DNA of 64,000 nt from the human T2T-CHM13v2.0 reference genome, Homo sapiens. Positions within the stretch are counted from its first letter, which is position 1, and every line of letters starts with the position of its first letter. A program made the position numbers and the translations under genes. Below are positions 24,301 to 51,610 of this stretch, in pieces. The notes beneath the pieces are model-generated. The model saw only the letters and a list, made by a program, of their open reading frames with translations. It had not been told where the DNA came from and did not search any database. The stretch covers positions 55,168,001-55,232,000 of the forward strand of contig CP086569.2 of the NCBI GenBank assembly GCA_009914755.4, in the 5' to 3' direction.

Positions 24301-24968
24301 GGAAATTAATGGAATGGAATGGAATCGAATGAAATGGAGTCAAAAGGAATGGAATCGAATGGCAAGAAATCGAATGTAATGGAATCGCAAGGAATTGATG
24401 TGAACGGAACGGAATGGAATGGAATCCAAAGGAATGGAATAGAATGGAATGGAATCGAATGGAAAGGACTCGAATGGAAATCACTCGAATAGAATGCAAT
24501 TTAATAAAATAGGATCAAATGGAATGGAATGGAATGGAAAGGAATCGAAACGAAAGGAATGGAGACAGATGGAATGGAATGGAACAGAGAGCAATGCTAT
24601 AGAATGGAATGGAATCATCTGGAATGGAATTGAATGGAATGGAATAATATGAAATGGAATGGAATGGAATGGAATGGAATGCCCTTGAATTAAATGGACT
24701 GGAATGGAATGGACTCCAACAGAGTGGAATGGAAAGTGTTGAGATAGAATGGAATGGACTCCTTTGGAATGGTCTAGTATGCAATGCAATCGACTGGCAG
24801 GGAATCAAAAGGAATGTAATCGAATGGATTGGACTGGAATGCAATGGACTCGAATAGATTGGAAACGGAATGCAAAGGAATGGAATGGAATAGTATGGAA
24901 TGGAATGGAAAGGAATGGAGTGGAATAGACTAGAGTGGAATGGAATGGACTGGAAAGCAATGGACTGG
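21390..24968 (+). repeat. HSat3 HOR unit 7 (3579 bp), a copy of unit 1
   Basis: Anchor at 21390. ORF-track translations are identical to unit 1 at a constant offset of 21389, for example 313-651 equals 21702-22040. Confidence 0.9.
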
Positions 24969-27900: not shown

Positions 27901-28562
27901 TAATGGAATGGAATGGAATGGAATGAAATGGAGTCAAAAGGAATGGAATCGAATGGCAAGAAATCGAATGTAATGGAATCGCAAGGAATTGATGTGAACG
28001 GAACGGAATGGAATGGAATCCAAAGGAATGGAATAGAATGGAATGGAATCGAATGGAAAGGACTCGAATGGAAATCACTCGAATAGAATGCAATTTAATA
28101 AAATAGGATCAAATGTAATGGAATGGAATGGAAAGGAATCGAAACGAAAGGAATGGAGACAGATGGAATGGAATAGAACAGAGAGCAATGGTATAGAATG
28201 GAATGGAATCATCTGGAATGGAATCATCTGGAATGGAATAATATGAAATGGAATGGAATGGAATGGAATGGAATGCCCTTGAATTAAATGGACTGGAATG
28301 GAATGGACTCGAACAGAGTGGAATGGAAAGTGTTGAGATAGAATGGAATGGACTCCTTTGGAATGGTGTAGTATGCAATGCAATCGACTGGCAGGGAATC
28401 AAAAGGAATGTAATGGAATGGACTGGACTGGAATGCAATGGACTCGAATAGATTGGAAACGGAATGCAAAGAAATGGAATGGAATAGTATGGAATGGAAT
28501 GGAAAGGAATGGAGTGGAATAGACTAGAGTGGAATGGAATGGACTGGAAAGCAATGGACTGG
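24969..28562 (+). repeat. HSat3 HOR unit 8 (3594 bp), a copy of unit 2
   Basis: Anchor at 24969. The length and variants are identical to unit 2, for example 3126-4043 equals 24515-25432. Confidence 0.9.
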
Positions 28563-31500
28563 AATGGAACTTTCTTGAATGGACTGGAATCAAACGGAAT
28601 GGAATGCAATGCAATCAAATGGCATGGAATAAAATAGAATGAAAGAGAATCAAATGGAATTGAATCGAATGGAATCGAATGGATTGGAAAGGAATAGAAT
28701 GGAATGGAATGGAATGGACTCAAATGGAATGGACTAGAATGGAATGGATTCGAATGGAAGGCAAAGGAATGGAATCTATTGGAATGGACTGTAATGGAAT
28801 GGAATGGAAGGGATTGGAATGGACTCGAATGGAATGGACTGCAATAGAAAGGATTCGAATGGAATGAAAAAGAATTGAATGGAATAGAACAGAATGGAAT
28901 CAAATCGAATGAAATGGAATGGAATAGAAAGGAATGGAATGAAATGGAATGGAAAGGATTCGAATGGAATGCAATCGAATGGAATGGAATCGAACGGAAT
29001 GGAATAAAATGGAAGAAAACTGGCAAGAAATGGAATCGAAATGAATGGAGTGTTATGGAACGGACTCAAAAGGAATTGAATGTAATAGAATGGAGTGGAG
29101 TGGACTCGAATATAATGGACTGGAATGGAATGAAATCACATGGAATGGGAACGAATGGAATGGAATGGAAAGGAATGGAATCGAATGGAAAGGAATCGAA
29201 TGGAAGGGAATGAAATTGAATCAACAGGAATGGAAGGGAATAGAATAGACGGTAATGGAATGGACTCGAATAGAATGGACACGAATGCTCAAATTGAATG
29301 GACTCGAATGGAATGGAAACGAAAGGAATGTCATCGAATGGAATTGAATCGATTGGAATGAAATCGCATAGAATGGAGTGGAATCAAATGGAATTGAATC
29401 GAAAGGAAAGGAAGCGAATGGACTGAAATGAAATGGAATGGAATTGAATGGAAAGTAATGCAATGGAATAGAATGGAACGAAATTTCACGGAATGGAATC
29501 AAACTGAATGGAATCAAATCAATGGAATCAAATCAAATGGAATGGAAAGGAATTGAATGGAGTAGATTGGATTGGATGGGATTGGAATGAAATGTACTGG
29601 AAAGGACTCGAATTTCATGAAACGGAATGGAATGAATTGGAACGGAATGGACTCGAATGGAATGGAATGTCATGGAATGGCATCAAATGGAACGGCATCA
29701 AATGGAATAGAATCGAATGCAATGGAATGCTATGGAATGGAATGGAATGCATTGGAATGGAATGTCCTCTAATGGAATGGATTCGAGTGGAATGGAATCG
29801 AATATAATGGAGTCGAATGAAATGGAATTGAAAGGAATGGGATCGAATACAATGGAATATACTGGAATGTAACGTAATGAACTCGAATGTAATTGACTGG
29901 AATGGAATGTACATGAATGGAATGTAATCGAATGGAAAGTAATCCAATGGAATAGAATCTAATGCAATAAAATCGACTCAGATAGAGTAGAATGTAATGG
30001 AATGGAGTTCAGTGCAATGGAATGGAATGGAATGGAATGCAATTGAATGGAATGGAATGGAATGGAATGGAATGGAATGGGATGGAATGGTATGGAATGG
30101 ATAGTAATGGACTGGAGTGAAATGGACTGGAAAGGAATGGACTCAAATTGAAAGGGCTCGAAAGGAATGGAGTCAAATGGAATGGTCTGGAATGGAATGA
30201 ACACGAATGTAATGCAATCCAATAGAATGGAATCGAATGGCATGGAATATAAAGAAATGGAATCGAAGAGAATGGAAACAAATGGAATGGAATTGAATGG
30301 AATGGGAACGAATGGAGTGAAATTGTATGCAGTAGAAGGGAATAGAATGGAATGCAAGCGAAAGGAAAGGAATGGATTGGAATGGAATGGAATTCATTGG
30401 AATGGAAGGGAATGTAGTGTAATGGACAGGCCTGGAATAAAGTGGAATGCTACGGTCTCGAATGGAATAAAAATGTATGGAATGGAATGCAATGAAACGG
30501 AATCGAATGTCATAGAATGTAATGGAATGCAAAAAAATGGAATCCAAAATCATTGACTGGAAAGGCTGGGTGTCGAAAGGAATTGACTCCAATGGAATGG
30601 AATCGAATGGAATGGAAGTGAATAGAATCGAACTAAATCGAATGGAATGGAATTGATAGGAACGGAATGGAAAGGAATGCAATGATTTGGCATGGAATGG
30701 AATCGAATGGCATCGAATGGAATGGAATGGAATGCAATGGAATGGAATGTATTAGAATGTAATGAACTTTAATGGAATGTACTCGAATGGATTCGACTGG
30801 AATGGAATGTTCTGGAAGTGAATGGACTCCAATGGAATGGATTCAAAAGGAATGGAATCGTACGGAATGGAATCTAATGGAATGGAATTAAATGGAAATG
30901 AATCAAATTGAATAGCACGGAATTGAATTGAATGGAATGGAATGCAATGGAATCTAATGAAACGGAAAGGAAAGGAATGGAATGGAATGGAATGGACTGG
31001 AATGGAAAGGAATCGAAACGAATGGAATGGAATCGAACTGAAGAGACTGGAATGGAATGCACTGGAATGGAAGGGAGTGTAATGGAAGGTTCTCGAAAAA
31101 AATGGAATCGAATGGAATGGAATTGAATGGAACGGAATAGAGTCGAATGGAATTGAATGGAATGGAATGGACTAGAGTGAAATGGAATCGAACCACAAGG
31201 AATGGACAGGAATAGAATGGTCTCGAATTGAATGGAATCGTATGGAATGGCATCAAACGGAATGGAATGGACAGCCACGGAATGGAATGCACTCGAATGC
31301 AATGGAGTCGAAACTAATGGACTGGAATAGAATGGACTCGACTGGTACGGACTCCAATGGAATGGAATCGAATGGAAGGGAATCGAACGGAATGGACTCG
31401 AAGGGAAAAGACTGCAATGGAAAGGTCTCGAATGGAATGGAAATTAATGGAATGGAATGGAATCGAATGAAATGGAGTCAAAAGGAATGGAATCGAATGG

Positions 31501-32106
31501 CAAGAAATCGAATGTAATGGAATCACAAGGAATTGATGTGAACGGAACGGAATGGAATGGAATCCAAAGGAATGGAATAGAATGGAATGGAATCGAATGG
31601 AAAGGACTCGAATGGAAATCACTCGAATAGAATGCAATTTAATAAAATAGGATCAAATGTAATGGAATGGAATGAAAAGGAATCGAAACGAAAGGAATGG
31701 AGACAGATGGAATGGAATGGAACAGAGAGCAATGGTATAGAATGGAATGGAATCATCTGGAATGGAATTGAATGGAATGGAATAATATGAAATGGAATGG
31801 AATGGAATGGAATGGAATGCCCTTGAATTAAATGGACTGGAATGGAATGGACTCGAACAGAGTGGAATGGAAAGTGTTGAGATAGAATGGAATGGACTCC
31901 TTTGGAATGGTGTAGTATGCAATGCAATCGACTGGCAGGGAATCAAAAGGAATGTAATCGAATGGATTGGACTGGAATGCAATGGACTCGAATAGATTGG
32001 AAACGGAATGCAAAGGAATGGAATGGAATAGTATGGAATGGAATGGAAAGGAATGGAGTGGAATAGACTAGAGTGGAATGGAATGGACTGGAAAGCAATG
32101 GACTGG
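28563..32106 (+). repeat. HSat3 HOR unit 9 (3544 bp), a copy of unit 3
   Basis: Anchor at 28563. It has the same 3544-bp length as unit 3 and the same diagnostic variants at offset 21389. Confidence 0.9.
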
Positions 32107-35100
32107 AATGGAACTTTCTTGAATGGACTGGAATCAAACGGAATGGAATGCAATGCAATCAAATGGCATGGAATAAAATAGAATGAAAGAGAATCAAATG
32201 GAATTGAATCGAATGGAATCGAATGGATTGGAAAGGAATAGAATGGAATGGAATGGAATTGACTCAAATGGAATGGACTAGAATGGAATGGATTCGAATG
32301 GAAGGCAAAGGAATGGAATCTATTGGAATGGACTGTAATGGAATGGAATGGAAGGGATTGGAATGGGCTCGAATGGAATGGACTGCAATAGAAAGGATTC
32401 GAATGGAATGAAAAAGAATTGAATGGAATAGAACAGAATGGAATCAAATCGAATGAAATGGAATGGAATGAAATGGAATGGAAAGGATTCGAATGGAATG
32501 CAATCGAATGGAATGGAATCGAACGGAATGGAATAAAATGGAAGAAAACTGGCAAGAAATGGAATCGAAATGAATGGAGTGTTATGGAACGGAGTCAAAA
32601 GGAATTGAATGTAATAGAATGGAGTGGAGTGGACTCGAATATAATGGACTGGAATGGAATGAAATCACATGGAATGGGAACGAATGGAATGGAATGGAAA
32701 GGAATGGAATCGAATGGAAAGGAATCGAATGGAAGGGAATGAAATTGAATCAACAGGAATGGAAGGGAATAGAATAGACGGTAATGGAATGGACTCGAAT
32801 AGAATGGACAGGAATGCTCAAATTGAATGGACTCGAATGGAATGGAAACGAAATGAATGTCATCGAATGGAATTGAATCGATTGGAATGAAATCATATAG
32901 AATGGAGTGGAATCAAATGGAATTGAATCGAAAGGAAAGGAAACAAATGGACTGAAATGAAATGGAATGGAATTGAATGGAAAGTTATGTAATGGAATAG
33001 AATGGAACGAAATTTCACGGAATGGATTCAAACTGAATGGAATCAAATCAATGGAATCAAATCAAATGGAATGGAAAGGAATTGAATGGAGTAGATTGGA
33101 TTGGATGGGATTGGAATGAAATGTACTGGAAAGGACTCGAATTTCATGAAACGGAATGGAATGAATTGGAACGGAACGGACTCGAATGGAATGGAATGTC
33201 ATGGAATGGCATCAAATGGAATGGCATCAAATGGAATGGAATCGAATGCAATGGAATGCTATGGAATGGAATGGAATGCATTGGAATGGAATGTCCTCTA
33301 ATGGAATGGATTCGAGTGGAATGGAATCGAATATAATGGAGTCGAATGAAATGGAATTGAAAGGAATGGGATCGAATACAATGGAATATACTGGAATGTA
33401 ATGTAATGAACTCGAATGTAATTGACTGGAATGGAATGTACATGAATGGAATGTAATCGAATGGAAAGTAATCCAATGGAATAGAATCTAATGCAATAAA
33501 ATCGACTCAGATAGAGTAGAATGCAATGGAATGGAGTGCAGTGCAATGGAATGGAATGGAATGCAATGGAATGGAATGGAATGGAATGGAATGGAATGGA
33601 ATGGAATGGTGTGGAATGGATAGTAATGGACTGGAGTGAAATGGACTGGAAAGGAATGGACTCAAATTGAAAGGGCTCGAAAGGAATGGAGTCAAATGGA
33701 ATGGTCTGGAATGGAATGAACACGAATGTAATGCAATCCAATAGAATGGAATCGAATGGCATGGAATATAAAGAAATGGAATCGAAGAGAATGGAAACAA
33801 ATGGAATGGAATTGAGTGGAATCGAATTGAATGGAATGGGAACGAATGGAGTGAAATTGTATGCAGTAGAAGAGAATAGAATGGAATGCAAGCGAAAGGA
33901 AAGGAATGGATTGGAATGGAATGGAATTCATTGGAATGGAAGGGAATGTAGTGTAATGGACAGGCCTGGAATAAAGTGGAATGCTACGGTCTCGAATGGA
34001 ATAAAAATGTATGGAATGGAATGCAATGAAACGGAATCGAATGTCATAGAATGTAATGAAATGCAAAAAAATGGAATCCAAAATCATTGACTGGAAAGGC
34101 TGGGTGTCGAAAGGAATTGACTCCAATGGAATGGAATCGAATGGAATGGAAGTGAATAGAATCGAACTAAATCGAATGGAATGGAATTGATAGGAACGGA
34201 ATGGAAAGGAATGCAATGATTTGGCATGGAATGGAATCGAATGGCATCGAATGGAATGGAATGGAATGCAATGGAATGGAATGTATTAGAATGTAATGAA
34301 CTTTAATGGAATGTACTCGAATGGATTCGACTGGAATGGAATGTTCTGGAAGTGAATGGACTCCAATGGAATGGATTCCAAAGGAATGGAATCGTACGGA
34401 ATGGAATCTAATGGAATGGAATTAAATGGAAATGAATCAAATTGAATAGCACGGAATTGAATTGAATGAAATGGAATGCAATGGAATCTAATGAAACGGA
34501 AAGGAAAGGAATGGAATGGAATGGAATGGGCTGGAATGGAAAGGAATCGAAACGAATGGAATGGAATCGAACTGAAGAGACTGGAATGGAATGCACTGGA
34601 ATGGAAGGGAGTGTAATGGAAGGTTCTCGAAAAAAATGGAATCGAATGGAATGGAATTGAATGGAAAGGAATAGAGTCGAATGAAATTGAATGGAATGGA
34701 ATGGACTAGAGTGAAATGGAATCGAACCACAAGGAATGGACAGGAATAGAATGGTCTCGAATTGAATGGAATCGTATGGAATGGCATCAAACGGAATGGA
34801 ATGGACAGCCACGGAATGGAATGCACTCGAATGCAATGGAGTCGAAACTAATGGACTGGAATAGAATGGACTCGACTGGTACGGACTCCAATGGAATGGA
34901 ATCGAATGGAAGGGAATCGAACGGAATGGACTCGAAGGGAAAAGACTGCAATGGAAAGGTCTCGAATGGAATGGAAATTAATGGAATGGAATGGAATCGA
35001 ATGAAATGGAGTCAAAAGGAATGGAATCGAATGGCAAGAAATCGAATGTAATGGAATCGCAAGGAATTGATGTGAACGGAACGGAATGGAATGGAATCCA

Positions 35101-35640
35101 AAGGAATGGAATAGAATGGAATGGAATCGAATGGAAAGGACTCGAATGGAAATCACTCGAATAGAATGCAATTTAATAAAATAGGATCAAATGGAATGGA
35201 ATGGAATGGAAAGGAATCGAAACGAAAGGAATGGAGACAGATGGAATGGAATGGAACAGAGAGCAATGCTATAGAATGGAATGGAATCATCTGGAATGGA
35301 ATTGAATGGAATGGAATAATATGAAATGGAATGGAATGGAATGGAATGGAATGCCCTTGAATTAAATGGACTGGAATGGAATGGACTCCAACAGAGTGGA
35401 ATGGAAAGTGTTGAGATAGAATGGAATGGACTCCTTTGGAATGGTCTAGTATGCAATGCAATCGACTGGCAGGGAATCAAAAGGAATGTAATCGAATGGA
35501 TTGGACTGGAATGCAATGGACTCGAATAGATTGGAAACGGAATGCAAAGGAATGGAATGGAATAGTATGGAATGGAATGGAAAGGAATGGAGTGGAATAG
35601 ACTAGAGTGGAATGGAATGGACTGGAAAGCAATGGACTGG
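32107..35640 (+). repeat. HSat3 HOR unit 10 (3534 bp), a copy of unit 4
   Basis: Anchor at 32107. It has the same 15-bp deletions as unit 4 and is 5 bp longer overall. Confidence 0.9.
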
Positions 35641-38600
35641 AATGGAACTTTCTTGAATGGACTGGAATCAAACGGAATGGAATGCAATGCAATCAAATGG
35701 CATGGAATAAAATAGAATGAAAGAGAATCAAATGGAATTGAATCGAATGGAATCGAATGGATTGGAAAGGAATAGAATGGAATGGAATGGAATTGACTCA
35801 AATGGAATGGACTAGAATGGAATGGATTCGAATGGAAGGCAAAGGAATGGAATCTATTGGAATGGACTGTAATGGAATGGAATGGAAGGGATTGGAATGG
35901 ACTCGAATGGAATGGACTGCAATAGAAAGGATTCCAATGGAATGAAAAAGAATTGAATGGAATAGAACAGAATGGAATCAAATCGAATGAAATGGAATGG
36001 AATAGAAAGGAATGGAATGAAATGGAATGGAAAGGATTCGAATGGAATGCAATCGAATGGAATGGAATCGAACGGAATGGAATAAAATGGAAGAAAACTG
36101 GCAAGAAATGGAATCGAAATGAATGGAGTATTATGGAACGGACTCAAAAGGAATTGAATGTAATAGAATGGAGTGGAGTGGACTCGAATATAATGGACTG
36201 GAATGGAATGAAATCACATGGAATGGGAACGAATGGAATGGAATGGAAAGGAATGGAATCGAATGGAAAGGAATCGAATGGAAGGGAATGAAATTGAATC
36301 AACAGGAATGGAAGGGAATAGAATAGACGGTAATGGAATGGACTCGAATAGAATGGACACGAATGCTCAAATTGAATGGACTCGAATGGAATGGAAACGA
36401 AAGGAATGTCATCGAATGGAATTGAATCGATTGGAATGAAATCGCATAGAATGGAGTGGAATCAAATGGAATTGAATCGAAAGGAAAGGAAGCGAATGGA
36501 CTGAAATGAAATGGAATGGAATTGAATGGAAAGTAATGCAATGGAATAGAATGGAACGAAATTTCACGGAATGGAATCAAACTGAATGGAATCAAATCAA
36601 TGGAATCTAATCAAATGGAATGGAAAGGAATTGAATGGAGTAGATTGGATTGGATGGGATTGGAATGAAATCTACTGGAAAGGACTCGAATTTCATGAAA
36701 CGGAATGGAATGAATTGGAACGGAATGGACTCGAATGGAATGGAATGTCATGGAATGGCATCAAATGGAATGGCATCAAATGGAATGGAATCGAATGCAA
36801 TGGAATGTTATGGAATGGAATGGAATGCATTGGAATGGAATGTCCTCTAATGGAATGGATTCGAGTGGAATGGAATCGAATATAATGGAGTCGAATGAAA
36901 TGGAATTGAAAGGAATGGGATCGAATAGAATGGAATATACTGGAATGTAATGTAATGAACTCGAATGTAATTGACTGGAATGGAATGTACATGAATGGAA
37001 GGTAATCGAATGGAAAGTAATCCAATGGAATAGAATCTAATGCAATAAAACCGACTCAGATAGAGTAGAATGTAATGGAATGGAGTGCAGTGCAATGGAA
37101 TGGAGTGGAATTGAATGCAAAGGAATGGAATGGAATGGAATGGAATGGAATGGAATGGAATGGAATGGAATGGGATGGAATGGTATGGAATGGATAGAAA
37201 TGGACTGGAGTGAAATGGACTGGAAAGGAATGGACTCAAATTGAAAGGGCTCGAAAGGAATGGAGTCAAATGGAATGGTCTGGAATGGAATGAACACGAA
37301 TGTAATGCAATCCAATAGAATGGAATCGAATGGCATGGAATATAAAGAAATGGATACGAAGAGAATGGAAACAAATGGAATGGAATTGAATGGAATGGAA
37401 TTGAATGGAATGGGAACGAATGGAGTGAAATTGTATGCAGTAGAAGGGAATAGAATGGAATGCAAGCGAAAGGAAAGGAATGGATTGGAATGGAATGGAA
37501 TTCATTGGAATGGAAGGGAATGTAGTGTAATGGACAGGCCTGGAATAAAGTGGAATGCTACGGTCTCGAATGGAATAAAAATGTATGGAATGGAATGCAA
37601 TGAAACGGAATCGAATGTCATAGAATGTAATGGAATGCAACAAAATGGAATCCAAAATCATTGACTGGAAAGGCTGGGTGTCGAAAGGAATTGACTCCAA
37701 TGGAATGGAATCGAATGGAATGGAAGTGAATAGAATCGAACTAAATCGAATGGAATGGAATTGATAGGAACGGAATGGAAAGGAATGCAATGATTTGGCA
37801 TGGAATGGAATCGAATGGCATCGAATGGAATGGAATGGAATGCAATGGAATGGAATGTATTAGAATGTAATGAACTTTAATGGAATGTACTCGAATGGAT
37901 TCGACTGGAATGGAATGTTCTGGAAGTGAATGGACTCCAATGGAATGGATTCAAAAGGAATGGAATCGTACGGAATGGAATCTAATGGAATGGAATTAAA
38001 TGGAAATGAATCAAATTGAATAGCACGGAATTGAATTGAATGGAATGGAATGCAATGGAATCTAATGAAACGGAAAGGAAAGGAATGGAATGGAATGGAA
38101 TGGGCTGGAATGGAAAGGAATCGAAACGAATGGAATGGAATCGAACTGAAGAGACTGGAATGGAATGCACTGGAATGGAAGGGAGTGTAATGGAAGGTTC
38201 TCGAAAAAAATGGAATCGAATGGAATGGAATTGAATGGAACGGAATAGAGTCGAATGGAATTGAATGGAATGGAATGGACTAGAGTGAAATGGAATCGAA
38301 CCACAAGGAATGGAGAGGAATAGAATGGTCTCGAATTGAATGGAATCATATGGAATGGCATCAAACGGAATGGAATGGACAGCCACGGAATGGAATGCAC
38401 TCGAATGCAATGGAGTCGAAACTAATGGACTGGAATAGAATGGACTCGACTGGTACGGACTCCAATGGAATGGAATCGAATGGAAGGGAATCGAACGGAA
38501 TGGACTCGAAGGGAAAAGACTGCAATGGAAAGGTCTCGAATGGAATGGAAATTAATGGAATGGAATGGAATCGAATGAAATGGAGTCAAAAGGAATGGAA

Positions 38601-39214
38601 TCGAATGGCAAGAAATCGAATGTAATGGAATCGCAAGGAATTGATGTGAACGGAACGGAATGGAATGGAATCCAAAGGAATGGAATAGAATGGAATGGAA
38701 TCGAATGGAAAGGACTCGAATGGAAATCACTCGAATAGAATGCAATTTAATAAAATAGGATCAAATATAATGGAATGGAATGGAAAGGAATCGAAACGAA
38801 AGGAATGGAGACAGATGGAATGGAATAGAACAGAGAGCAATGGTATAGAATGGAATGGAATCATCTGGAATGGAATTGAATGGAATGGAATAATATGAAA
38901 AGGAACGGAATGGAATGGAATGGAATGCCCTTGAATTAAATGGACTGGAATGGAATGGACTCGAACAGAGTGGAATGGAAAGTGTTGAGATAGAATGGAA
39001 TGGACTCCTTTGGAATGGTGTAGTATGCAATGCAATCGACTGGCAGGGAATCAAAAGGAATGTAATCGAATGGATTGGACTGGAATGCAATGGACTCGAA
39101 TAGATTGCAAACAGAATGCAAAGGAATGGAATGGAATAGTATGGAATGGAATGGAAAGGAATGGAGTGGAATAGACTAGAGTGGAATGGAATGGACTGGA
39201 AAGCAATGGACTGG
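35641..39214 (+). repeat. HSat3 HOR unit 11 (3574 bp)
   Basis: Anchor at 35641 and 39215. Its 5' part equals unit 5 at offset ~21394 and its 3' end is of the unit-6 type. Confidence 0.9.
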
Positions 39215-40878
39215 AATGGAACTTTCTTGAATGGACTGGAATCAAACGGAATGGAATGCAATGCAATCAAATGGCATGGAATAAAATAGAATGAAAGAGA
39301 ATCAAATGGAATTGAATCGAATGGAATCGAATGGATTGGAAAGGAATAGAATGGAATGGAATGGAATTGACTCAAATGGAATGGACTAGAATGGAATGGA
39401 TTCGAATGGAAGGCAAAGGAATGGAATCTATTGGAATGGACTGTAATGGAATGGAATGGAAGGGATTGGAATGGACTCGAATGGAATGGACTGCAATAGA
39501 AAGGATTTGAATGGAATGAAAAAGAATTGAATGGAATAGAACAGAATGGAATCAAATCGAATGAAATGGAATGGAATAGAAAGGAATGGAATGAAATGGA
39601 ATGGAAAGGATTCGAATGGAATGCAATCGAATGGAATGGAATCGAACGGAATGGAATAAAATGGAAGAAAACTGGCAAGAAATGGAATCGAAATGAATGG
39701 AGTGTTATGGAACGGACTCAAAAGGAATTGAATGTAATAGAATGGAGTGGAGTGGACTCGAATATAATGGACTGGAATGGAATGAAATCACATGGAATGG
39801 GAACGAATGGAATGGAATGGAAAGGAATGGAATCGAATGGAAAGGAATCGAATGGAAGGGAATGAAATTGAATCAACAGGAATGGAAGGGAATAGAATAG
39901 ACGGTAATGGAATGGACTCGAATAGAATGGACACGAATGCTCAAATTGAATGGACTCGAATGGAATGGAAACGAAAGGAATGTCATCGAATGGAATTGAA
40001 TCGATTGGAATGAAATCGCATAGAATGGAGTGGAATCAAATGGAATTGAATCGAAAGGAAAGGAAGCGAATGGACTGAAATGAAATGGAATGGAATTGAA
40101 TGGAAAGTAATGCAATGGAATAGAATGGAACGAAATTTCACGGAATGGAATCAAACTGAATGGAATCAAATCAATGGAATCAAATCAAATGGAATGGAAA
40201 GGAATTGAATGGAGTAGATTGGATTGGATGGGATTGGAATGAAATGTACTGGAAAGGACTCGAATTTCATGAAACGGAATGGAATGAATTGGAACGGAAT
40301 GGACTCGAATGGAATGGAATGTCATGGAATGGCATCAAATGGAATGGCATCAAATGGAATGGAATCGAATGGAAAGGACTCGAATGGAAATCACTCGAAT
40401 AGAATGCAATTTAATAAAATAGGATCAAATATAATGGAATGGAATGGAAAGGAATCGAAACGAAAGGAATGGAGACAGATGGAATGGAATAGAACAGAGA
40501 GCAATGGTATAGAATGGAATGGAATCATCTGGAATGGAATTGAATGGAATGGAATAATATGAAATGGAATGGAATGGAATGGAATGGAATGCCCTTGAAT
40601 TAAATGGACTGGAATGGAATGGACTCGAACAGAGTGGAATGGAAAGTGTTGAGATAGAATGGAATGGACTCCTTTGGAATGGTGTAGTATGCAATGCAAT
40701 CGACTGGCAGGGAATCAAAAGGAATGTAATCGAATGGATTGGACTGGAATGCAATGGACTCGAATAGATTGCAAACAGAATGCAAAGGAATGGAATGGAA
40801 TAGTATGGAATGGAATGGAAAGGAATGGAGTGGAATAGACTAGAGTGGAATGGAATGGACTGGAAAGCAATGGACTGG
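39215..40878 (+). repeat. HSat3 HOR unit 12, truncated (1664 bp) by an internal 1915-bp deletion
   Basis: The anchors at 39215 and 40879 are only 1664 bp apart. ORF 40224-40562 fuses two segments that lie ~1.9 kb apart in every other unit. Confidence 0.9.
40353..40371 (+). other. Deletion junction with 19-bp microhomology (aatggaatggaatcgaatg) inside truncated HOR unit 12
   Basis: The left flank (…ggcatcaaatggaatggaatcgaatg|caatggaatgctatgg in intact units) and the right flank (…aatagaatggaatggaatcgaatg|gaaaggactcgaatggaaatcactcg) share this 19-mer. Here the 19-mer is followed directly by gaaaggactcg. Confidence 0.85.
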
Positions 40879-43800
40879 AATGGAACTTTCTTGAATGGAC
40901 TGGAATCAAACGGAATGGAATGCAATGCAATCAAATGGCATGGAATAAAATAGAATGAAAGAGAATCAAATGGAATTGAATCGAATGGAATCGAATGGAT
41001 TGGAAAGGAATAGAATGGAATGGAATGGAATTGACTCAAATGGAATGGACTAGAATGGAATGGATTCGAATGGAAGGCAAAGGAATGGAATCTATTGGAA
41101 TGGACTGTAATGGAATGGAATGGAAGGGATTGGAATGGACTCGAATGGAATGGACTGCAATAGAAAGGATTTGAATGGAATGAAAAAGAATTGAATGGAA
41201 TAGAACAGAATGGAATCAAATCGAATGAAATGGAATGGAATAGAAAGGAATGGAATGAAATGGAATGGAAAGGATTCGAATGGAATGCAATCGAATGGAA
41301 TGGAATCGAACGGAATGGAATAAAATGGAAGAAAACTGGCAAGAAATGGAATCGAAATGAATGGAGTGTTATGGAACGGACTCAAAAGGAATTGAATGTA
41401 ATAGAATGGAGTGGAGTGGACTCGAATATAATGGACTGGAATGGAATGAAATCACATGGAATGGGAACGAATGGAATGGAATGGAAAGGAATGGAATCGA
41501 ATGGAAAGGAATCGAATGGAAGGGAATGAAATTGAATCAACAGGAATGGAAGGGAATAGAATAGACGGTAATGGAATGGACTCGAATAGAATGGACACGA
41601 ATGCTCAAATTGAATGGACTCGAATGGAATGGAAACGAAAGGAATGTCATCGAATGGAATTGAATCGATTGGAATGAAATCGCATAGAATGGAGTGGAAT
41701 CAAATGGAATTGAATCGAAAGGAAAGGAAGCGAATGGACTGAAATGAAATGGAATGGAATTGAATGGAAAGTAATGCAATGGAATAGAATGGAACGAAAT
41801 TTCACGGAATGGAATCAAACTGAATGGAATCAAATCAATGGAATCAAATCAAATGGAATGGAAAGGAATTGAATGGAGTAGATTGGATTGGATGGGATTG
41901 GAATGAAATGTACTGGAAAGGACTCGAATTTCATGAAACGGAATGGAATGAATTGGAACGGAATGGACTCGAATGGAATGGAATGTCATGGAATGGCATC
42001 AAATGGAATGGCATCAAATGGAATGGAATCGAATGCAATGGAATGCTATGGAATGGAATGGAATGCATTGGAATGGAATGTCCTCTAATGGAATGGATTC
42101 GAGTGGAATGGAATCGAATATAATGGAGTCGAATGAAATGGAATTGAAAGGAATGGGATCGAATACAATGGAATATACTGGAATGTAATGTAATGAACTC
42201 GAATGTAATTGACTGGAATGGAATGTACATGAATGGAATGTAATCGAATGGAAAGTAATCCAATGGAATAGAATCTAATGCAATAAAATCGACTCAGATA
42301 GATTAGAATGTAATGGAATGGAGTGCAGTGCAATGGAATGGAATGGAATGGAATGCAATGGAATGGAATGGAATGGAATGGAATGGAATGGAATGGAATG
42401 GAATGGGATGGAATGGTATGGAATGGTATGGAATGGATAGTAATGGACTGGAGTGAAATGGACTGGAAAGGAATGGACTCAAATTGAAAGGGCTCGAAAG
42501 GAATGGAGTCAAATGGAATGGTCTGGAATGGAATGAACACGAATGTAATGCAATCCAATAGAATGGAATCGAATGGCATGGAATATAAAGAAATGGATTC
42601 GAAGAGAATGGAAACAAATGGAATGGAATTGAATGGAATGGAATTGAATGGAATGGGAACGAATGGAGTGAAATTGTATGCAGTAGAAGGGAATAGAATG
42701 GAATGCAAGCGAAAGGAAAGGAATGGATTGGAATGGAATGGAATTCATTGGAATGGAAGGGAATGTAGTGTAATGGACAGGCCTGGAATAAAGTGGAATG
42801 CTACGGTCTCGAATGGAATAAAAATGTATGGAATGGAATACAAAGAAACGGAATCGAATGTCATAGAATGTAATGGAATGCAACAAAATGGAATCCAAAA
42901 TCATTGACTGGAAAGGCTGGGTGTCGAAAGGAATTGACTCCAATGGAATGGAATCGAATGGAATGGAAGTGAATAGAATCGAACTAAATCGAATGGAATG
43001 GAATTGATAGGAACGGAATGGAAAGGAATGCAATGATTTGGCATGGAATGGAATCGAATGGCATCGAATGGAATGGAATGGAATGCAATGGAATGGAATG
43101 TATTAGAATGTAATGAACTTTAATGGAATGTACTCGAATGGATTCGACTGGAATGGAATGTTCTGGAAGTGAATGGACTCCAATGGAATGGATTCAAAAG
43201 GAATGGAATCGTACGGAATGGAATCTAATGGAATGGAATTAAATGGAAATGAATCAAATTGAATAGCACGGAATTGAATTGAATGGAATGGAATGCAATG
43301 GAATCTAATGAAACGGAAAGGAAAGGAATGGAATGGAATGGAATGGGCTGGAATGGAAAGGAATCGAAACGAATGGAATGGAATCGAACTGAAGAGACTG
43401 GAATGGAATGCACTGGAATGGAAGGGAGTGTAATGGAAGGTTCTCGAAAAAAATGGAATCGAATGGAATGGAATTGAATGGAACGGAATAGAGTCGAATG
43501 GAATTGAATGGAATGGAATGGACTAGAGTGAAATGGAATCGAACCACAAGGAATGGAGAGGAATAGAATGGTCTCGAATTGAATGGAATCGTATGGAATG
43601 GCATCAAACGGAATGGAATGGACAGCCACGGAATGGAATGCACTCGAATGCAATGGAGTCGAAACTAATGGACTGGAATAGAATGGACTCGACTGGTACG
43701 GACTCCAATGGAATGGAATCGAATGGAAGGGAATCGAACGGAATGGACTCGAAGGGAAAAGACTGCAATGGAAAGGTCTGGAATGGAATGGAAATTAATG

Positions 43801-44457: not shown

Positions 44458-47400
44458 AATGGAACTTTCTTGAATGGACTGGAATCAAACGGAATGGAAT
44501 GCAATGCAATCAAATGGCATGGAATAAAATAGAATGAAAGAGAATCAAATGGAATTGAATCGAATGGAATCGAATGGATTGGAAAGGAATAGAATGGAAT
44601 GGAATGGAATTGACTCAAATGGAATGGACTAGAATGGAATGGATTCGAATGGAAGGCAAAGGAATGGAATCTATTGGAATGGACTGTAATGGAATGGAAT
44701 GGAAGGGATTGGAATGGACTCGAATGGAATGGACTGCAATAGAAAGGATTCCAATGGAATGAAAAAGAATTGAATGGAATAGAACAGAATGGAATCAAAT
44801 CGAATGAAATGGAATGGAATAGAAAGGAATGGAATGAAATGGAATGGAAAGGATTCGAATGGAATGCAATCGAATGGAATGGAATCGAACGGAATGGAAT
44901 AAAATGGAAGAAAACTGGCAAGAAATGGAATCGAAATGAATGGAGTATTATGGAACGGACTCAAAAGGAATTGAATGTAATAGAATGGAGTGGAGTGGAC
45001 TCGAATATAATGGACTGGAATGGAATGAAATCACATGGAATGGGAACGAATGGAATGGAATGGAAAGGAATGGAATCGAATGGAAAGGAATCGAATGGAA
45101 GGGAATGAAATTGAATCAACAGGAATGGAAGGGAATAGAATAGACGGTAATGGAATGGACTCGAATAGAATGGACACGAATGCTCAAATTGAATGGACTC
45201 GAATGGAATGGAAACGAAAGGAATGTCATCGAATGGAATTGAATCGATTGGAATGAAATCGCATAGAATGGAGTGGAATCAAATGGAATTGAATCGAAAG
45301 GAAAGGAAGCGAATGGACTGAAATGAAATGGAATGGAATTGAATGGAAAGTAATGCAATGGAATAGAATGGAACGAAATTTCACGGAATGGAATCAAACT
45401 GAATGGAATCAAATCAATGGAATCTAATCAAATGGAATGGAAAGGAATTGAATGGAGTAGATTGGATTGGATGGGATTGGAATGAAATCTACTGGAAAGG
45501 ACTCGAATTTCATGAAACGGAATGGAATGAATTGGAACGGAATGGACTCGAATGGAATGGAATGTCATGGAATGGCATCAAATGGAATGGCATCAAATGG
45601 AATGGAATCGAATGCAATGGAATGTTATGGAATGGAATGGAATGCATTGGAATGGAATGTCCTCTAATGGAATGGATTCGAGTGGAATGGAATCGAATAT
45701 AATGGAGTCGAATGAAATGGAATTGAAAGGAATGGGATCGAATAGAATGGAATATACTGGAATGTAATGTAATGAACTCGAATGTAATTGACTGGAATGG
45801 AATGTACATGAATGGAAGGTAATCGAATGGAAAGTAATCCAATGGAATAGAATCTAATGCAATAAAACCGACTCAGATAGAGTAGAATGTAATGGAATGG
45901 AGTGCAGTGCAATGGAATGGAATGGAATGGAATGCAATGGAATGGAATGGAATGGAATGGAATGGAATGGAATGGAATGGAATGGGATGGAATGGTATGG
46001 AATGGTATGGAATGGATAGTAATGGACTGGAGTGAAATGGACTGGAAAGGAATGGACTCAAATTGAAAGGGCTCGAAAGGAATGGAGTCAAATGGAATGG
46101 TCTGGAATGGAATGAACACGAATGTAATGCAATCCAATAGAATGGAATCGAATGGCATGGAATATAAAGAAATGGATTCGAAGAGAATGGAAACAAATGG
46201 AATGGAATTGAATGGAATGGAATTGAATGGAATGGGAACGAATGGAGTGAAATTGTATGCAGTAGAAGGGAATAGAATGGAATGCAAGCGAAAGGAAAGG
46301 AATGGATTGGAATGGAATGGAATTCATTGGAATGGAAGGGAATGTAGTGTAATGGACAGGCCTGGAATAAAGTGGAATGCTACGGTCTCGAATGGAATAA
46401 AAATGTATGGAATGGAATACAAAGAAACGGAATCGAATGTCATAGAATGTAATGGAATGCAACAAAATGGAATCCAAAATCATTGACTGGAAAGGCTGGG
46501 TGTCGAAAGGAATTGACTCCAATGGAATGGAATCGAATGGAATGGAAGTGAATAGAATCGAACTAAATCGAATGGAATGGAATTGATAGGAACGGAATGG
46601 AAAGGAATGCAATGATTTGGCATGGAATGGAATCGAATGGCATCGAATGGAATGGAATGGAATGCAATGGAATGGAATGTATTAGAATGTAATGAACTTT
46701 AATGGAATGTACTCGAATGGATTCGACTGGAATGGAATGTTCTGGAAGTGAATGGACTCCAATGGAATGGATTCAAAAGGAATGGAATCGTACGGAATGG
46801 AATCTAATGGAATGGAATTAAATGGAAATGAATCAAATTGAATAGCACGGAATTGAATTGAATGGAATGGAATGCAATGGAATCTAATGAAACGGAAAGG
46901 AAAGGAATGGAATGGAATGGAATGGGCTGGAATGGAAAGGAATCGAAACGAATGGAATGGAATCGAACTGAAGAGACTGGAATGGAATGCACTGGAATGG
47001 AAGGGAGTGTAATGGAAGGTTCTCGAAAAAAATGGAATCGAATGGAATGGAATTGAATGGAACGGAATAGAGTCGAATGGAATTGAATGGAATGGAATGG
47101 ACTAGAGTGAAATGGAATCGAACCACAAGGAATGGAGAGGAATAGAATGGTCTCGAATTGAATGGAATCGTATGGAATGGCATCAAACGGAATGGAATGG
47201 ACAGCCACGGAATGGAATGCACTCGAATGCAATGGAGTCGAAACTAATGGACTGGAATAGAATGGACTCGACTGGTACGGACTCCAATGGAATGGAATCG
47301 AATGGAAGGGAATCGAACGGAATGGACTCGAAGGGAAAAGACTGCAATGGAAAGGTCTGGAATGGAATGGAAATTAATGGAATGGAATGGAATCGAATGA

Positions 47401-48036
47401 AATGGAGTCAAAAGGAATGGAATCGAATGGCAAGAAATCGAATGTAATGGAATCGCAAGGAATTGATGTGAACGGAACGGAATGGAATGGAATCCAAAGG
47501 AATGGAATAGAATGGAATGGAATCGAATGGAAAGGACTCGAATGGAAATCACTCGAATAGAATGCAATTTAATAAAATAGGATCAAATGGAATGGAATGG
47601 AATGGAAAGGAATCGAAACGAAAGGAATGGAGACAGATGGAATGGAATGGAACAGAGAGCAATGCTATAGAATGGAATGGAATCATCTGGAATGGAATTG
47701 AATGGAATGGAATAATATGAAATGGAATGGAATGGAATGGAATGGAATGCCCTTGAATTAAATGGACTGGAATGGAATGGACTCCAACAGAGTGGAATGG
47801 AAAGTGTTGAGATAGAATGGAATGGACTCCTTTGGAATGGTCTAGTATGCAATGCAATCGACTGGCAGGGAATCAAAAGGAATGTAATCGAATGGATTGG
47901 ACTGGAATGCAATGGACTCGAATAGATTGGAAACGGAATGCAAAGGAATGGAATGGAATAGTATGGAATGGAATGGAAAGGAATGGAGTGGAATAGACTA
48001 GAGTGGAATGGAATGGACTGGAAAGCAATGGACTGG
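44458..48036 (+). repeat. HSat3 HOR unit 14 (3579 bp), subtype L/W
   Basis: Anchor at 44458 and 48037. Confidence 0.9.
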
Positions 48037-51000
48037 AATGGAACTTTCTTGAATGGACTGGAATCAAACGGAATGGAATGCAATGCAATCAAATGGCATG
48101 GAATAAAATAGAATGAAAGAGAATCAAATGGAATTGAATCGAATGGAATCGAATGGATTGGAAAGGAATAGAATGGAATGGAATGGAATTGACTCAAATG
48201 GAATGGACTAGAATGGAATGGATTCGAATGGAAGGCAAAGGAATGGAATCTATTGGAATGGACTGTAATGGAATGGAATGGAAGGGATTGGAATGGACTC
48301 GAATGGAATGGACTGCAATAGAAAGGATTCCAATGGAATGAAAAAGAATTGAATGGAATAGAACAGAATGGAATCAAATCGAATGAAATGGAATGGAATA
48401 GAAAGGAATGGAATGAAATGGAATGGAAAGGATTCGAATGGAATGCAATCGAATGGAATGGAATCGAACGGAATGGAATAAAATGGAAGAAAACTGGCAA
48501 GAAATGGAATCGAAATGAATGGAGTATTATGGAACGGACTCAAAAGGAATTGAATGTAATAGAATGGAGTGGAGTGGACTCGAATATAATGGACTGGAAT
48601 GGAATGAAATCACATGGAATGGGAACGAATGGAATGGAATGGAAAGGAATGGAATCGAATGGAAAGGAATCGAATGGAAGGGAATGAAATTGAATCAACA
48701 GGAATGGAAGGGAATAGAATAGACGGTAATGGAATGGACTCGAATAGAATGGACACGAATGCTCAAATTGAATGGACTCGAATGGAATGGAAACGAAAGG
48801 AATGTCATCGAATGGAATTGAATCGATTGGAATGAAATCGCATAGAATGGAGTGGAATCAAATGGAATTGAATCGAAAGGAAAGGAAGCGAATGGACTGA
48901 AATGAAATGGAATGGAATTGAATGGAAAGTAATGCAATGGAATAGAATGGAACGAAATTTCACGGAATGGAATCAAACTGAATGGAATCAAATCAATGGA
49001 ATCTAATCAAATGGAATGGAAAGGAATTGAATGGAGTAGATTGGATTGGATGGGATTGGAATGAAATCTACTGGAAAGGACTCGAATTTCATGAAACGGA
49101 ATGGAATGAATTGGAACGGAATGGACTCGAATGGAATGGAATGTCATGGAATGGCATCAAATGGAATGGCATCAAATGGAATGGAATCGAATGCAATGGA
49201 ATGTTATGGAATGGAATGGAATGCATTGGAATGGAATGTCCTCTAATGGAATGGATTCGAGTGGAATGGAATCGAATATAATGGAGTCGAATGAAATGGA
49301 ATTGAAAGGAATGGGATCGAATAGAATGGAATATACTGGAATGTAATGTAATGAACTCGAATGTAATTGACTGGAATGGAATGTACATGAATGGAAGGTA
49401 ATCGAATGGAAAGTAATCCAATGGAATACAATCTAATGCAATAAAACCGACTCAGATAGAGTAGAATGTAATGGAATGGAGTGCAGTGCAATGGAATGGA
49501 ATGGAATTGAATGCAATGGAATGGAATGGAATGGAATGGAATGGAATGGAATGGAATGGAATGGAATGGGATGGAATGGTATGGAATGGATAGAAATGGA
49601 CTGGAGTGAAATGGACTGGAAAGGAATGGACTCAAATTGAAAGGGCTCGAAAGGAATGGAGTCAAATGGAATGGTCTGGAATGGAATGAACACGAATGTA
49701 ATGCAATCCAATAGAATGGAATCGAATGGCATGGAATATAAAGAAATGGATACGAAGAGAATGGAAACAAATGGAATGGAATTGAATGGAATGGAATTGA
49801 ATGGAATGGGAACGAATGGAGTGAAATTGTATGCAGTAGAAGGGAATAGAATGGAATGCAAGCGAAAGGAAAGGAATGGATTGGAATGGAATGGAATTCA
49901 TTGGAATGGAAGGGAATGTAGTGTAATGGACAGGCCTGGAATAAAGTGGAATGCTACGGTCTCGAATGGAATAAAAATGTATGGAATGGAATGCAATGAA
50001 ACGGAATCGAATGTCATAGAATGTAATGGAATGCAACAAAATGGAATCCAAAATCATTGACTGGAAAGGCTGGGTGTCGAAAGGAATTGACTCCAATGGA
50101 ATGGAATCGAATGGAATGGAAGTGAATAGAATCGAACTAAATCGAATGGAATGGAATTGATAGGAACGGAATGGAAAGGAATGCAATGATTTGGCATGGA
50201 ATGGAATCGAATGGCATCGAATGGAATGGAATGGAATGCAATGGAATGGAATGTATTAGAATGTAATGAACTTTAATGGAATGTACTCGAATGGATTCGA
50301 CTGGAATGGAATGTTCTGGAAGTGAATGGACTCCAATGGAATGGATTCAAAAGGAATGGAATCGTACGGAATGGAATCTAATGGAATGGAATTAAATGGA
50401 AATGAATCAAATTGAATAGCACGGAATTGAATTGAATGGAATGGAATGCAATGGAATCTAATGAAACGGAAAGGAAAGGAATGGAATGGAATGGAATGGG
50501 CTGGAATGGAAAGGAATCGAAACGAATGGAATGGAATCGAACTGAAGAGACTGGAATGGAATGCACTGGAATGGAAGGGAGTGTAATGGAAGGTTCTCGA
50601 AAAAAATGGAATCGAATGGAATGGAATTGAATGGAACGGAATAGAGTCGAATGGAATTGAATGGAATGGAATGGACTAGAGTGAAATGGAATCGAACCAC
50701 AAGGAATGGAGAGGAATAGAATGGTCTCGAATTGAATGGAATCATATGGAATGGCATCAAACGGAATGGAATGGACAGCCACGGAATGGAATGCACTCGA
50801 ATGCAATGGAGTCGAAACTAATGGACTGGAATAGAATGGACTCGACTGGTACGGACTCCAATGGAATGGAATCGAATGGAAGGGAATCGAACGGAATGGA
50901 CTCGAAGGGAAAAGACTGCAATGGAAAGGTCTCGAATGGAATGGAAATTAATGGAATGGAATGGAATCGAATGAAATGGAGTCAAAAGGAATGGAATCGA

Positions 51001-51610
51001 ATGGCAAGAAATCGAATGTAATGGAATCGCAAGGAATTGATGTGAACGGAACGGAATGGAATGGAATCCAAAGGAATGGAATAGAATGGAATGGAATCGA
51101 ATGGAAAGGACTCGAATGGAAATCACTCGAATAGAATGCAATTTAATAAAATAGGATCAAATATAATGGAATGGAATGGAAAGGAATCGAAACGAAAGGA
51201 ATGGAGACAGATGGAATGGAATAGAACAGAGAGCAATGGTATAGAATGGAATGGAATCATCTGGAATGGAATTGAATGGAATGGAATAATATGAAATGGA
51301 ATGGAATGGAATGGAATGGAATGCCCTTGAATTAAATGGACTGGAATGGAATGGACTCGAACAGAGTGGAATGGAAAGTGTTGAGATAGAATGGAATGGA
51401 CTCCTTTGGAATGGTGTAGTATGCAATGCAATCGACTGGCAGGGAATCAAAAGGAATGTAATCGAATGGATTGGACTGGAATGCAATGGACTCGAATAGA
51501 TTGCAAACAGAATGCAAAGGAATGGAATGGAATAGTATGGAATGGAATGGAAAGGAATGGAGTGGAATAGACTAGAGTGGAATGGAATGGACTGGAAAGC
51601 AATGGACTGG
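48037..51610 (+). repeat. HSat3 HOR unit 15 (3574 bp)
   Basis: Anchor at 48037 and 51611. The 5' two-thirds are nearly identical to unit 14. Confidence 0.9.

What the first reader, a model, noticed from the sequence alone, without database searches (positions are those of the whole stretch)
39215..40878. Truncated HOR unit with a 1,915-bp internal deletion at a 19-bp microhomology
Unit 12 is 1664 bp long instead of ~3579. The breakpoint lies at 40353-40371 on the 19-mer aatggaatggaatcgaatg. This 19-mer occurs at two places ~1.9 kb apart in intact units, at roughly relative positions 1140 and 3060. The junction joins sequence normally followed by caatggaatgctatgg to sequence normally preceded by aatagaatgg. 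The deleted length of 1915 bp equals 383 pentamers, so pentamer phase is preserved. This is a clean example of intra-unit homology-mediated deletion, by replication slippage or unequal sister-chromatid exchange, inside a satellite HOR. It also makes a unique structural marker within an otherwise monotonous array.
Basis: seen in the sequence. Interest (0 to 1): 0.55.

Follow-up and report, generated by a model that had tools for sequence, protein, structure and literature searches.

The report
Short chimeric unit in human DYZ1 satellite
One repeat unit in this stretch of the human Y-chromosome DYZ1 satellite is less than half the normal length; it is real in the sequence but ordinary, the footprint of a misaligned exchange between two neighbouring repeat units rather than a simple deletion inside one unit.

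Summary
The window is human DYZ1 (Yq12 HSat3A6). It holds 18 full units of 3,529-3,594 bp and is 99.2-99.35% identical to a published 3,564-bp DYZ1 unit. It aligns to its neighbours with one gap of 1,910/1,915 bp. The switch lies inside the 19-mer AATGGAATGGAATCGAATG at 40353-40371, and the fusion k-mer is unique in the window.

The interpretation needs correction in three places.
- The 19-mer occurs about five times per unit, not twice. One unit holds 139 internal exact matches of 19 bp or more, so the microhomology is unremarkable.
- Every indel among the intact units is a multiple of 5 bp, so keeping the pentamer phase is the rule here.
- The two arms come from different unit subtypes. The left arm is identical to the next unit (U13). 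The right arm is identical to U15 and 2 bp from the previous unit (U11). No intact unit combines these arms.

Segments 38689-40352 and 40353-42016 are therefore a 1,664-bp tandem duplicate differing at 2 bases. The best reading is an out-of-register exchange between units, with net change +1.66 kb or a larger deletion. This is known satellite dynamics and of low interest. An assembly artefact cannot be excluded without reads.

The parts
39222..40885 (+). Short DYZ1 unit (U12), 1,664 bp. The left arm is 39222-40352 (unit positions 1-1131). The right arm is 40353-40885 (the last 533 bp of a unit). It lacks the central ~1.9 kb, including the HaeIII site and the 154-bp sexing amplicon.
   Evidence: Marker spacing; two-block alignment; no GGCC site and no primer sites in this unit.
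40353..40371 (+). Junction 19-mer AATGGAATGGAATCGAATG. The left flank is the site-a context (..TGGCATCA) and the right flank is the site-b context (GAAAGGACTCG..).
   Evidence: This is the only a-left/b-right combination among 80 copies of the 19-mer in the window.
38689..40352 (+). Copy 1 of the 1,664-bp tandem duplicate: right arm of U11 plus left arm of U12.
   Evidence: Ungapped comparison with 40353-42016 shows 2 differences in 1,664 bp.
40353..42016 (+). Copy 2 of the 1,664-bp tandem duplicate: right arm of U12 plus left arm of U13.
38689..38707 (+). Site b (the 19-mer) in the preceding unit U11. This is the candidate parental exchange site under the duplication model.
42017..42035 (+). 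Site a (the 19-mer) in the following unit U13. This is the candidate parental exchange site under the duplication model.
38901..38906 (+). The only two differences between the duplicate copies, 5 bp apart: 38901 A versus T, and 38906 C versus T. The second is a CpG/TpG site, and its C is shared with U6.
37537..42783 (+). The 5,243-bp interval between HaeIII (GGCC) sites that spans the short unit. Elsewhere the fragments are 3,529-3,579 bp. This predicts a diagnostic restriction fragment.

Best explanation
The window is human Y-chromosome DYZ1 satellite (HSat3A6, Yq12). The short unit is the recombinant joint left by one out-of-register exchange between two different DYZ1 units.

The site-a 19-mer (position ~1132) of a 'type-1' unit, like U13, was joined to the site-b 19-mer (position ~3047) of a 'type-H' unit, like U11 or U15. 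Type H normally precedes type 1 in this array.

The simplest form is an exchange between immediate neighbours on misaligned sister chromatids, or a template switch during replication or break-induced repair. That duplicated the 1,664-bp segment spanning the unit boundary, so the array gained 1.66 kb and lost nothing. A variant that fits equally well is a ~5.5-kb deletion within an earlier (type-1, type-H)(type-1, type-H) arrangement.

Shown: the single junction, the 19-bp identity, the chimeric arms and the 99.88% tandem duplicate. Inferred: the mechanism, the direction of the net length change, and that the assembly is correct. The element has no function. It is a neutral structural variant and a potential lineage marker.
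For: Identity of the array:
- HaeIII fragments are 3.53-3.58 kb.
- Fragments are 99.2-99.35% identical over 3,564 columns to the published human DYZ1 unit MZT1a/KF941192 (PMC3925983 Additional file 1).
- Contaminant DYZ1 contigs from metagenomes and bacterial assemblies are mostly 92-99.9% identical over their best alignments (a few only 72-90%), as the T2T-Y paper describes.

Junction:
- One gap and two ungapped blocks.
- The context switch lies inside the 19-mer.

Chimeric arms:
- The left arm shows 0 differences to U13, 1-2 to U1, U7, U16 and U17, and 4 or more to the rest.
- The right arm shows 0 differences to U15, 2 to U6 and U11, and 5 or more to the rest.
- No intact unit is close on both arms.

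Duplication signature:
- 38689-40352 and 40353-42016 differ at 2 of 1,664 positions.
- d(L, next unit) + d(R, previous unit) is 2 for U12, against 6-24 for 14 other units.
- The only other low value is U14 (0). It is a full-length in-register chimera of the same kind, so exchange between neighbouring units has happened here independently.

Context from the literature:
- Yq12 rearrangement patterns are consistent with unequal exchange, and sister-chromatid exchanges were seen in about 15% of Strand-seq libraries.
- There is about one de novo SV per Y transmission in Yq12, and gene conversion is frequent (PMC12240836).
Against: - The right arm is not identical to that of the preceding unit. The two clustered differences are at 38901 and 38906, and the C at 38906 is shared with U6. 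A pure neighbour duplication therefore needs one later short conversion tract or two substitutions. The right arm is instead identical to U15.
- 19 bp of identity, with flanks 57-75% identical (60-70% within 20 bp of the junction), is far below the homology length usually needed for mammalian homologous recombination (own knowledge). Classical crossing-over is thus less likely than a replication-based template switch.
- No reciprocal product (b-left/a-right junction) was seen in the window or in the 53 loci.
- No read-level evidence is available, so an assembly error is not excluded.
Confidence: 0.62

Rival explanations
1. One reading: a 1,915-bp deletion inside one full-length unit, between its own site a and site b. 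The cause would be replication slippage, single-strand annealing after a break, or an intrachromatid loop-out.
For: - The structure is compatible: one gap of 1,910/1,915 bp flanked by the 19-mer.
- In-register chimeric units do exist in this array: U14, and the type-H units U11 and U15. A full-length ancestor with a type-1 left arm and a type-H right arm could therefore once have sat between U11 and U13 and then lost its middle.
Against: - It needs two events, formation of an in-register hybrid and then a deletion, where one out-of-register exchange suffices.
- None of the 17 intact units in the window has the required arm combination. The best single-unit fits are 5 (U15), 7 (U11) and 8 (U13) differences, against 0-2 for the two-parent fit.
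Confidence: 0.22
2. Assembly artefact: the real chromosome has a full-length unit, or no extra unit, here. The short unit would come from a mis-join or a collapsed path in the assembly graph.
For: [quoted passage not shown] The 2026 population-scale Y paper reports graph errors in tandem repeats.
- The fusion 35-mer was found in none of the public metagenome or prokaryote-genome contigs, while the matched normal site-b 35-mer was found in 45 + 8 loci.
Against: - Around the junction the parental sequences share only 19 exact bases, with flanks 57-75% identical. Long-read assemblers do not join on overlaps of that size (inference).
- The absence from 53 loci is uninformative for a single-copy variant among thousands of units.
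- The arms carry a coherent, biologically sensible haplotype pattern.
Confidence: 0.08
3. The short unit is the seam of a much larger segmental duplication, that is, the joint between copies of the ~21.4-kb six-unit super-repeat seen in the window.
For: - The short unit sits at the end of the second super-repeat copy (U7-U11), just before a type-1 unit (U13) that begins the next one.
- U1, U7 and U13 differ by only 3-4 positions.
Against: - The units to the right of the joint do not repeat the left-hand series. U14 versus U8 shows 33 differences and U15 versus U9 shows 59.
- The joint between copy 1 and copy 2 (U6|U7) is seamless.
Confidence: 0.05

Closest known systems
Human DYZ1 / HSat3A6 3.56-kb repeat of Yq12 (Nakahori 1986, own knowledge; T2T-Y, Rhie et al. 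2023; Hallast et al. 2023)
   Same: - The unit is derived from the pentamer GGAAT.
- There is one HaeIII site per unit, giving 3.53-3.58-kb fragments.
- It is 99.2-99.35% identical to a published DYZ1 unit.
- Unit lengths include the 3,569 bp that Hallast et al. found most abundant.
   Different: The unit studied here is 1,664 bp and lacks the central 1.9 kb. The papers read here do not describe this variant.
Structural variants of alpha-satellite higher-order repeats made by unequal crossing-over between homologous monomers (for example the D17Z1 16-/15-/14-mers; Waye & Willard 1986; Smith 1976 model; own knowledge)
   Same: - A shortened repeat unit inside an otherwise regular array.
- A single joint at an internal homology.
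- Arms contributed by different parental units.
- The sub-repeat phase is preserved.
   Different: - In alpha satellite the exchanging homologies are 171-bp monomers, 70-90% or more identical. Here the exact identity is only 19 bp of pentamer-derived sequence.
- Alpha-satellite variants are often amplified to many copies. This one is single-copy in all data examined.
The 2.7-kb repeat at the Yq11/Yq12 boundary (Hallast et al. 2023)
   Same: It is a sub-unit-length derivative of DYZ1: 77% of the 2.7-kb unit is 97% identical to DYZ1. Rearranged DYZ1 units can therefore persist.
   Different: That repeat is a DYZ18/DYZ1 hybrid amplified into its own array. The unit here is pure DYZ1 and is not amplified.
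Tandem duplications and deletions with microhomology at the junction, attributed to replication template switching (FoSTeS/MMBIR; own knowledge)
   Same: The junction identity is short (19 bp), and there is a head-to-tail duplicate of 1.66 kb.
   Different: In a satellite, any in-phase joint carries some identity. The microhomology is therefore not diagnostic of that pathway.

Membership tests
Human DYZ1 (HSat3A6) satellite | Built from diverged copies of the pentamer GGAAT/TTCCA | tested here: met
   TRF finds one array over 15-63993 with periods 15, 30 and 45 and GGAAT-type consensus units. Composition is uniform, with GC 0.38-0.40 and a strong G-over-C skew.
Human DYZ1 (HSat3A6) satellite | ~3.56-kb higher-order unit released by HaeIII | tested here: met
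   There is one GGCC site per intact unit. Fragments are 3,529-3,579 bp, apart from one extra site in U6 and the 5,243-bp fragment across the short unit. Published values are 3,564 bp and 3,569 bp.
Human DYZ1 (HSat3A6) satellite | Sequence identity to a published DYZ1 unit | tested here: met
   Four window fragments are 99.21-99.35% identical over 3,564 aligned columns to MZT1a blood (KF941192), transcribed from PMC3925983 Additional file 1.
Human DYZ1 (HSat3A6) satellite | Carries the classical 154-bp DYZ1 sexing amplicon | tested here: inconclusive
   Both primers match exactly once per intact unit, 154 bp apart. The primer sequences are from my memory, however, and could not be verified in the held library.
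Human DYZ1 (HSat3A6) satellite | Located in Yq12, in blocks alternating with DYZ2/HSat1B | not testable with these tools
   The 64-kb window lies wholly inside one DYZ1 block, and no human genome is available to search.
Product of unequal (out-of-register) exchange between repeat units | A single joint, with both arms collinear with normal units | tested here: met
   Two ungapped blocks of 1,131 and 533 bp, with 0-8 mismatches.
Product of unequal (out-of-register) exchange between repeat units | The joint lies in sequence shared by the two parental sites | tested here: met
   19 bp of exact identity. The flanks switch from the a-context to the b-context across it.
Product of unequal (out-of-register) exchange between repeat units | The arms derive from two different parental units | tested here: met
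   The left arm is type 1 (0 differences to U13). The right arm is type H (0 to U15, 2 to U11). No intact unit is close on both.
Product of unequal (out-of-register) exchange between repeat units | A reciprocal product exists (a unit with the middle duplicated, b-left/a-right junction) | tested here: not met
   No b-left/a-right context appears among 80 copies of the 19-mer in the window or about 215 in 53 external loci. The reciprocal would segregate to the other chromatid, so its absence is expected and does not count against the model.
   The best single-unit fits are 5-8 differences, against 0-2 for the two-parent fit. An unobserved chimeric ancestor cannot be excluded.

The most novel reading that the evidence does not exclude
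The short unit may be an old, stably inherited joint. From 2 differences in 1,664 bp, at the published Yq12 rate of 3.86e-7 per bp per generation, its age is roughly 1,600 generations (Poisson range about 190-5,600). On that reading it would mark a Y-haplogroup clade, or it could seed a new 1.66-kb sub-array, as the 2.7-kb DYZ1-derived repeat did. It would then give a rare fixed landmark for anchoring and dating rearrangements inside a DYZ1 block.
Probability: 0.15. Interest if true: 0.3.

Novelty: new member of a known kind. Interest (0 to 1): 0.15.

Why it matters
It matters little for biology. Satellites, Yq12 in particular, are already understood to evolve by unequal exchange and gene conversion, and this is one more footprint of that process.

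It has some practical value.
- The fusion k-mer (21-35 nt) and the 5,243-bp HaeIII fragment are unique landmarks in a monotonous array. They can be used for assembly validation or for tracing this DYZ1 block among related Y chromosomes.
- The case shows that in a periodic array 'deletion of x' and 'duplication of (unit - x)' look the same. They can be told apart only by phasing unit-subtype variants on the two arms.

Tried and rejected
- **Fusion junction in public collections.** The 35-mer gave 0 hits in metagenome contigs and in genome contigs. The matched control, the normal site-b 35-mer, gave 45 + 8 loci. DYZ1 is therefore present there, but the sample is far too small to detect a single-copy variant.
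- **DYZ1 sexing primers in the literature.** Three searches found nothing, so that evidence stays marked as from memory. I replaced it with a direct alignment to a published DYZ1 sequence.
- **The repeat finder on 38000-42600.** The tool was swamped by the 65-69% self-similarity of the satellite and gave nothing useful. The duplicate was measured by direct comparison instead.
- **Rfam scan of the whole window.** No family matched.
- **Seam of the 21.4-kb super-repeat.** Rejected because the units to its right do not repeat the series to its left.
- **Donor for the 38901/38906 variant pair.** None exists in the window.
- **Other rearrangements mediated by the same 19-mer.** None was found in 53 external DYZ1 loci. 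The apparent 'd/c' contexts are point variants.

Full report
**What the window is.** The whole 64 kb is one tandem array derived from the pentamer GGAAT, with uniform composition.
- The marker CTTTCTTGAATGGACTGG divides it into 18 units of 3,529-3,594 bp plus one of 1,664 bp.
- GGCC (HaeIII) occurs once per intact unit, giving fragments of 3,529-3,579 bp. This is the classical definition of DYZ1.
- I transcribed the published 3,564-bp DYZ1 unit MZT1a/KF941192 from Additional file 1 of PMC3925983. Four window fragments are 99.2-99.35% identical to its reverse complement over all 3,564 columns.
- The window is therefore human DYZ1 (HSat3A6, Yq12), shown on the GGAAT strand.
- Two sexing primers I recalled from memory match exactly once per intact unit, 154 bp apart. 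I could not verify them in the library.
- Rfam finds nothing.

**The observation.** It is correct.
Both are 1,664 bp.
- Global alignment to units 11, 13, 5 and 6 always gives two ungapped blocks of 1,131 bp and 533 bp. The single gap is 1,910 bp against a 3,574-bp unit and 1,915 bp against a 3,579-bp unit.
- The 19-mer AATGGAATGGAATCGAATG sits at 40353-40371. Its left flank is that of 'site a' (unit position 1132) and its right flank that of 'site b' (position 3047), so the switch is inside the 19 bp.

**What is not special.**
- The 19-mer occurs 80 times in the window, at five sites per unit, not two. It also occurs five times in the independent published unit.
- Within a single unit there are 139 pairs of maximal exact repeats of 19 bp or more, 103 of them at least 500 bp apart, and the longest is 45 bp. 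Identity beyond the 19-mer is 57-75% depending on side and flank length (60-70% within 20 bp), about the general self-similarity of the satellite (68% by TRF). A joint on 19 identical bases is what any in-phase rearrangement here would show.
- All gaps among the 17 intact units are 5, 10, 15 or 20 bp. Preservation of the pentamer phase is therefore the rule in this array.

**The arms come from different units.**
- A multiple alignment of the intact units shows distinct subtypes and a six-unit (~21.4-kb) super-repeat. U1/U7/U13 differ by 3-4 positions, U2/U8 by 1 and U3/U9 by 0. Different subtypes differ by roughly 30-120.
- The left arm of the short unit has 0 differences to U13, 1-2 to U1, U7, U16 and U17, and 4 or more to all others.
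- The right arm has 0 differences to U15, 2 to U6 and U11, and 5 or more to all others.
- Units that match on the left are 7-8 differences away on the right. Units that match on the right are 5-7 away on the left. No intact unit carries both arms.
- In the array, the right-arm type (type H or 6: U6, U11, U15) is regularly followed by the left-arm type (U7, U13, U16).
- The present sequence therefore reads R(H)-L(1)-R(H)-L(1). Segments 38689-40352 and 40353-42016 are head-to-tail copies of 1,664 bp that differ at only two positions: 38901 (A/T) and 38906 (C/T, a CpG site).
- The statistic 'differences of the left arm to the next unit plus differences of the right arm to the previous unit' is 2 for U12 and 6-24 for 14 other units.
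- The only other low value is U14 (0). U14 is a full-length, in-register chimera of its neighbours, an independent footprint of exchange between adjacent units. U11 and U15 are in-register hybrids of types 5 and 6.

**Most likely mechanism.** One out-of-register exchange joined site a of a type-1 unit to site b of a type-H unit.
- If the two units were immediate neighbours (ancestors of U11 and U13), the result is a 1,664-bp tandem duplication and the array grew. This needs one later short conversion tract, or two substitutions, at 38901/38906. Gene conversion is documented as frequent in Yq12 (PMC12240836). I found no donor carrying both variants in the window.
- If the array earlier read H, 1', H', 1, the same joint would be a ~5.5-kb deletion and would fit with zero later changes. 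I cannot separate these two forms.
It is possible, because in-register chimeras do occur here, but it is less parsimonious.
- Yq12 does not recombine with a homologue, so the partners were sister chromatids or the same chromatid. The T2T-Y paper reports rearrangement patterns consistent with unequal exchange, and sister-chromatid exchanges in about 15% of Strand-seq libraries.
- The exact identity is only 19 bp. A replication or repair template switch is therefore at least as plausible as classical crossing-over. This is my inference from general knowledge of homology requirements.
- Single-strand annealing could produce only the deletion forms.

**Artefact and recurrence.**
- I cannot examine reads. 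A false join on a 19-bp identity with flanks 57-75% identical is not how long-read assemblers usually fail, and the arm haplotypes are coherent. I rate an artefact as unlikely, at about 8%.
- The fusion 35-mer is absent from the metagenome and prokaryote-genome collections. The matched normal site-b 35-mer finds 45 + 8 loci.
- These loci are human DYZ1 contaminants, mostly 92-99.9% identical to U13 over their best alignments (a few only 72-90%). They include contigs in a human gut metagenome and in Actinomadura and Streptomyces assemblies. The T2T-Y paper describes such contamination.
- This shows the joint is not a common DYZ1 variant. It says nothing about a single-copy one.
- No reciprocal junction and no other recombinant context of the 19-mer was seen in the window or the loci.

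**Rough age (inference).** Two differences in 1,664 bp, at 3.86e-7 per bp per generation acting on two copies, give about 1,600 generations. The Poisson range is about 190-5,600. The estimate halves if the two clustered changes were one event.

**Comparison and verdict.**
- This is a new instance of a well-known kind: a recombinant repeat unit made by unequal exchange in a satellite.
- It is analogous to the monomer-deletion variants of alpha-satellite higher-order repeats, and to the DYZ1-derived 2.7-kb repeat at the Yq11/Yq12 border. Unlike those, it is not amplified.
- Its use is as a landmark. The fusion k-mer and a 5,243-bp HaeIII fragment mark one spot in a monotonous array.
- Interest is low.

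Noticed in passing
window 8-21396 versus 21397-39221: There is a second-order periodicity of about 21.4 kb. Units U1-U6 recur as U7-U11, with 3, 1, 0 and 10 differences for the first four pairs. Unit lengths recur too: 3579, 3594, 3544, then 3529/3534. U13 starts a third copy that then departs from the pattern. This indicates a very recent multi-unit tandem duplication.
   Followed up: partly
window 44465-48043 (U14); 35648-39221 (U11); 48044-51617 (U15): These are full-length in-register chimeric units. U14 has the left arm of U15 and the middle and right of U13 (0 differences to each), a duplication-type recombinant. U11 and U15 combine the left part of type 5 with the right arm of type 6, a deletion-type hybrid. 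They are footprints of several unit-register exchanges within 64 kb.
   Followed up: partly
window 18355: U6 has an extra GGCC (HaeIII) site, which splits that unit's fragment into 2,217 + 1,357 bp. It is absent from the equivalent units of the other super-repeat copies.
   Followed up: no
whole window: All length differences among intact units are gaps of 5, 10, 15 or 20 bp, at only about 7 positions in the unit. 15 bp is the commonest gap size, which matches the 15-bp period that TRF reports.
   Followed up: yes
units U3 (7181-10724), U9 (28570-32113) and the last partial unit (from 62315): These units lack an exact copy of the 19-mer at site a. The recombination substrate is therefore itself polymorphic among unit subtypes.
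   Followed up: no
loci L046-L053 (e.g. BMRF01000076.1 Actinomadura cremea JCM 3308, 3,637 bp; BMTH01000092.1 and BMUF01000112.1 Streptomyces; CAYVXY010000078.1 Polyangiaceae MAG) and L001-L045: Contigs deposited as bacterial or archaeal genomes and metagenomes are human DYZ1, up to 99.9% identical to window unit U13. Many are about 3.6 kb long, that is, one collapsed repeat unit. This is human contamination of public assemblies.
   Followed up: partly
window 38901 and 38906: The only two differences between the 1,664-bp duplicate copies lie 5 bp apart (AAAGG AACGG versus AATGG AATGG). This suggests a single conversion or multi-nucleotide event rather than two independent substitutions. No donor carrying both variants exists in the window.
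   Followed up: partly
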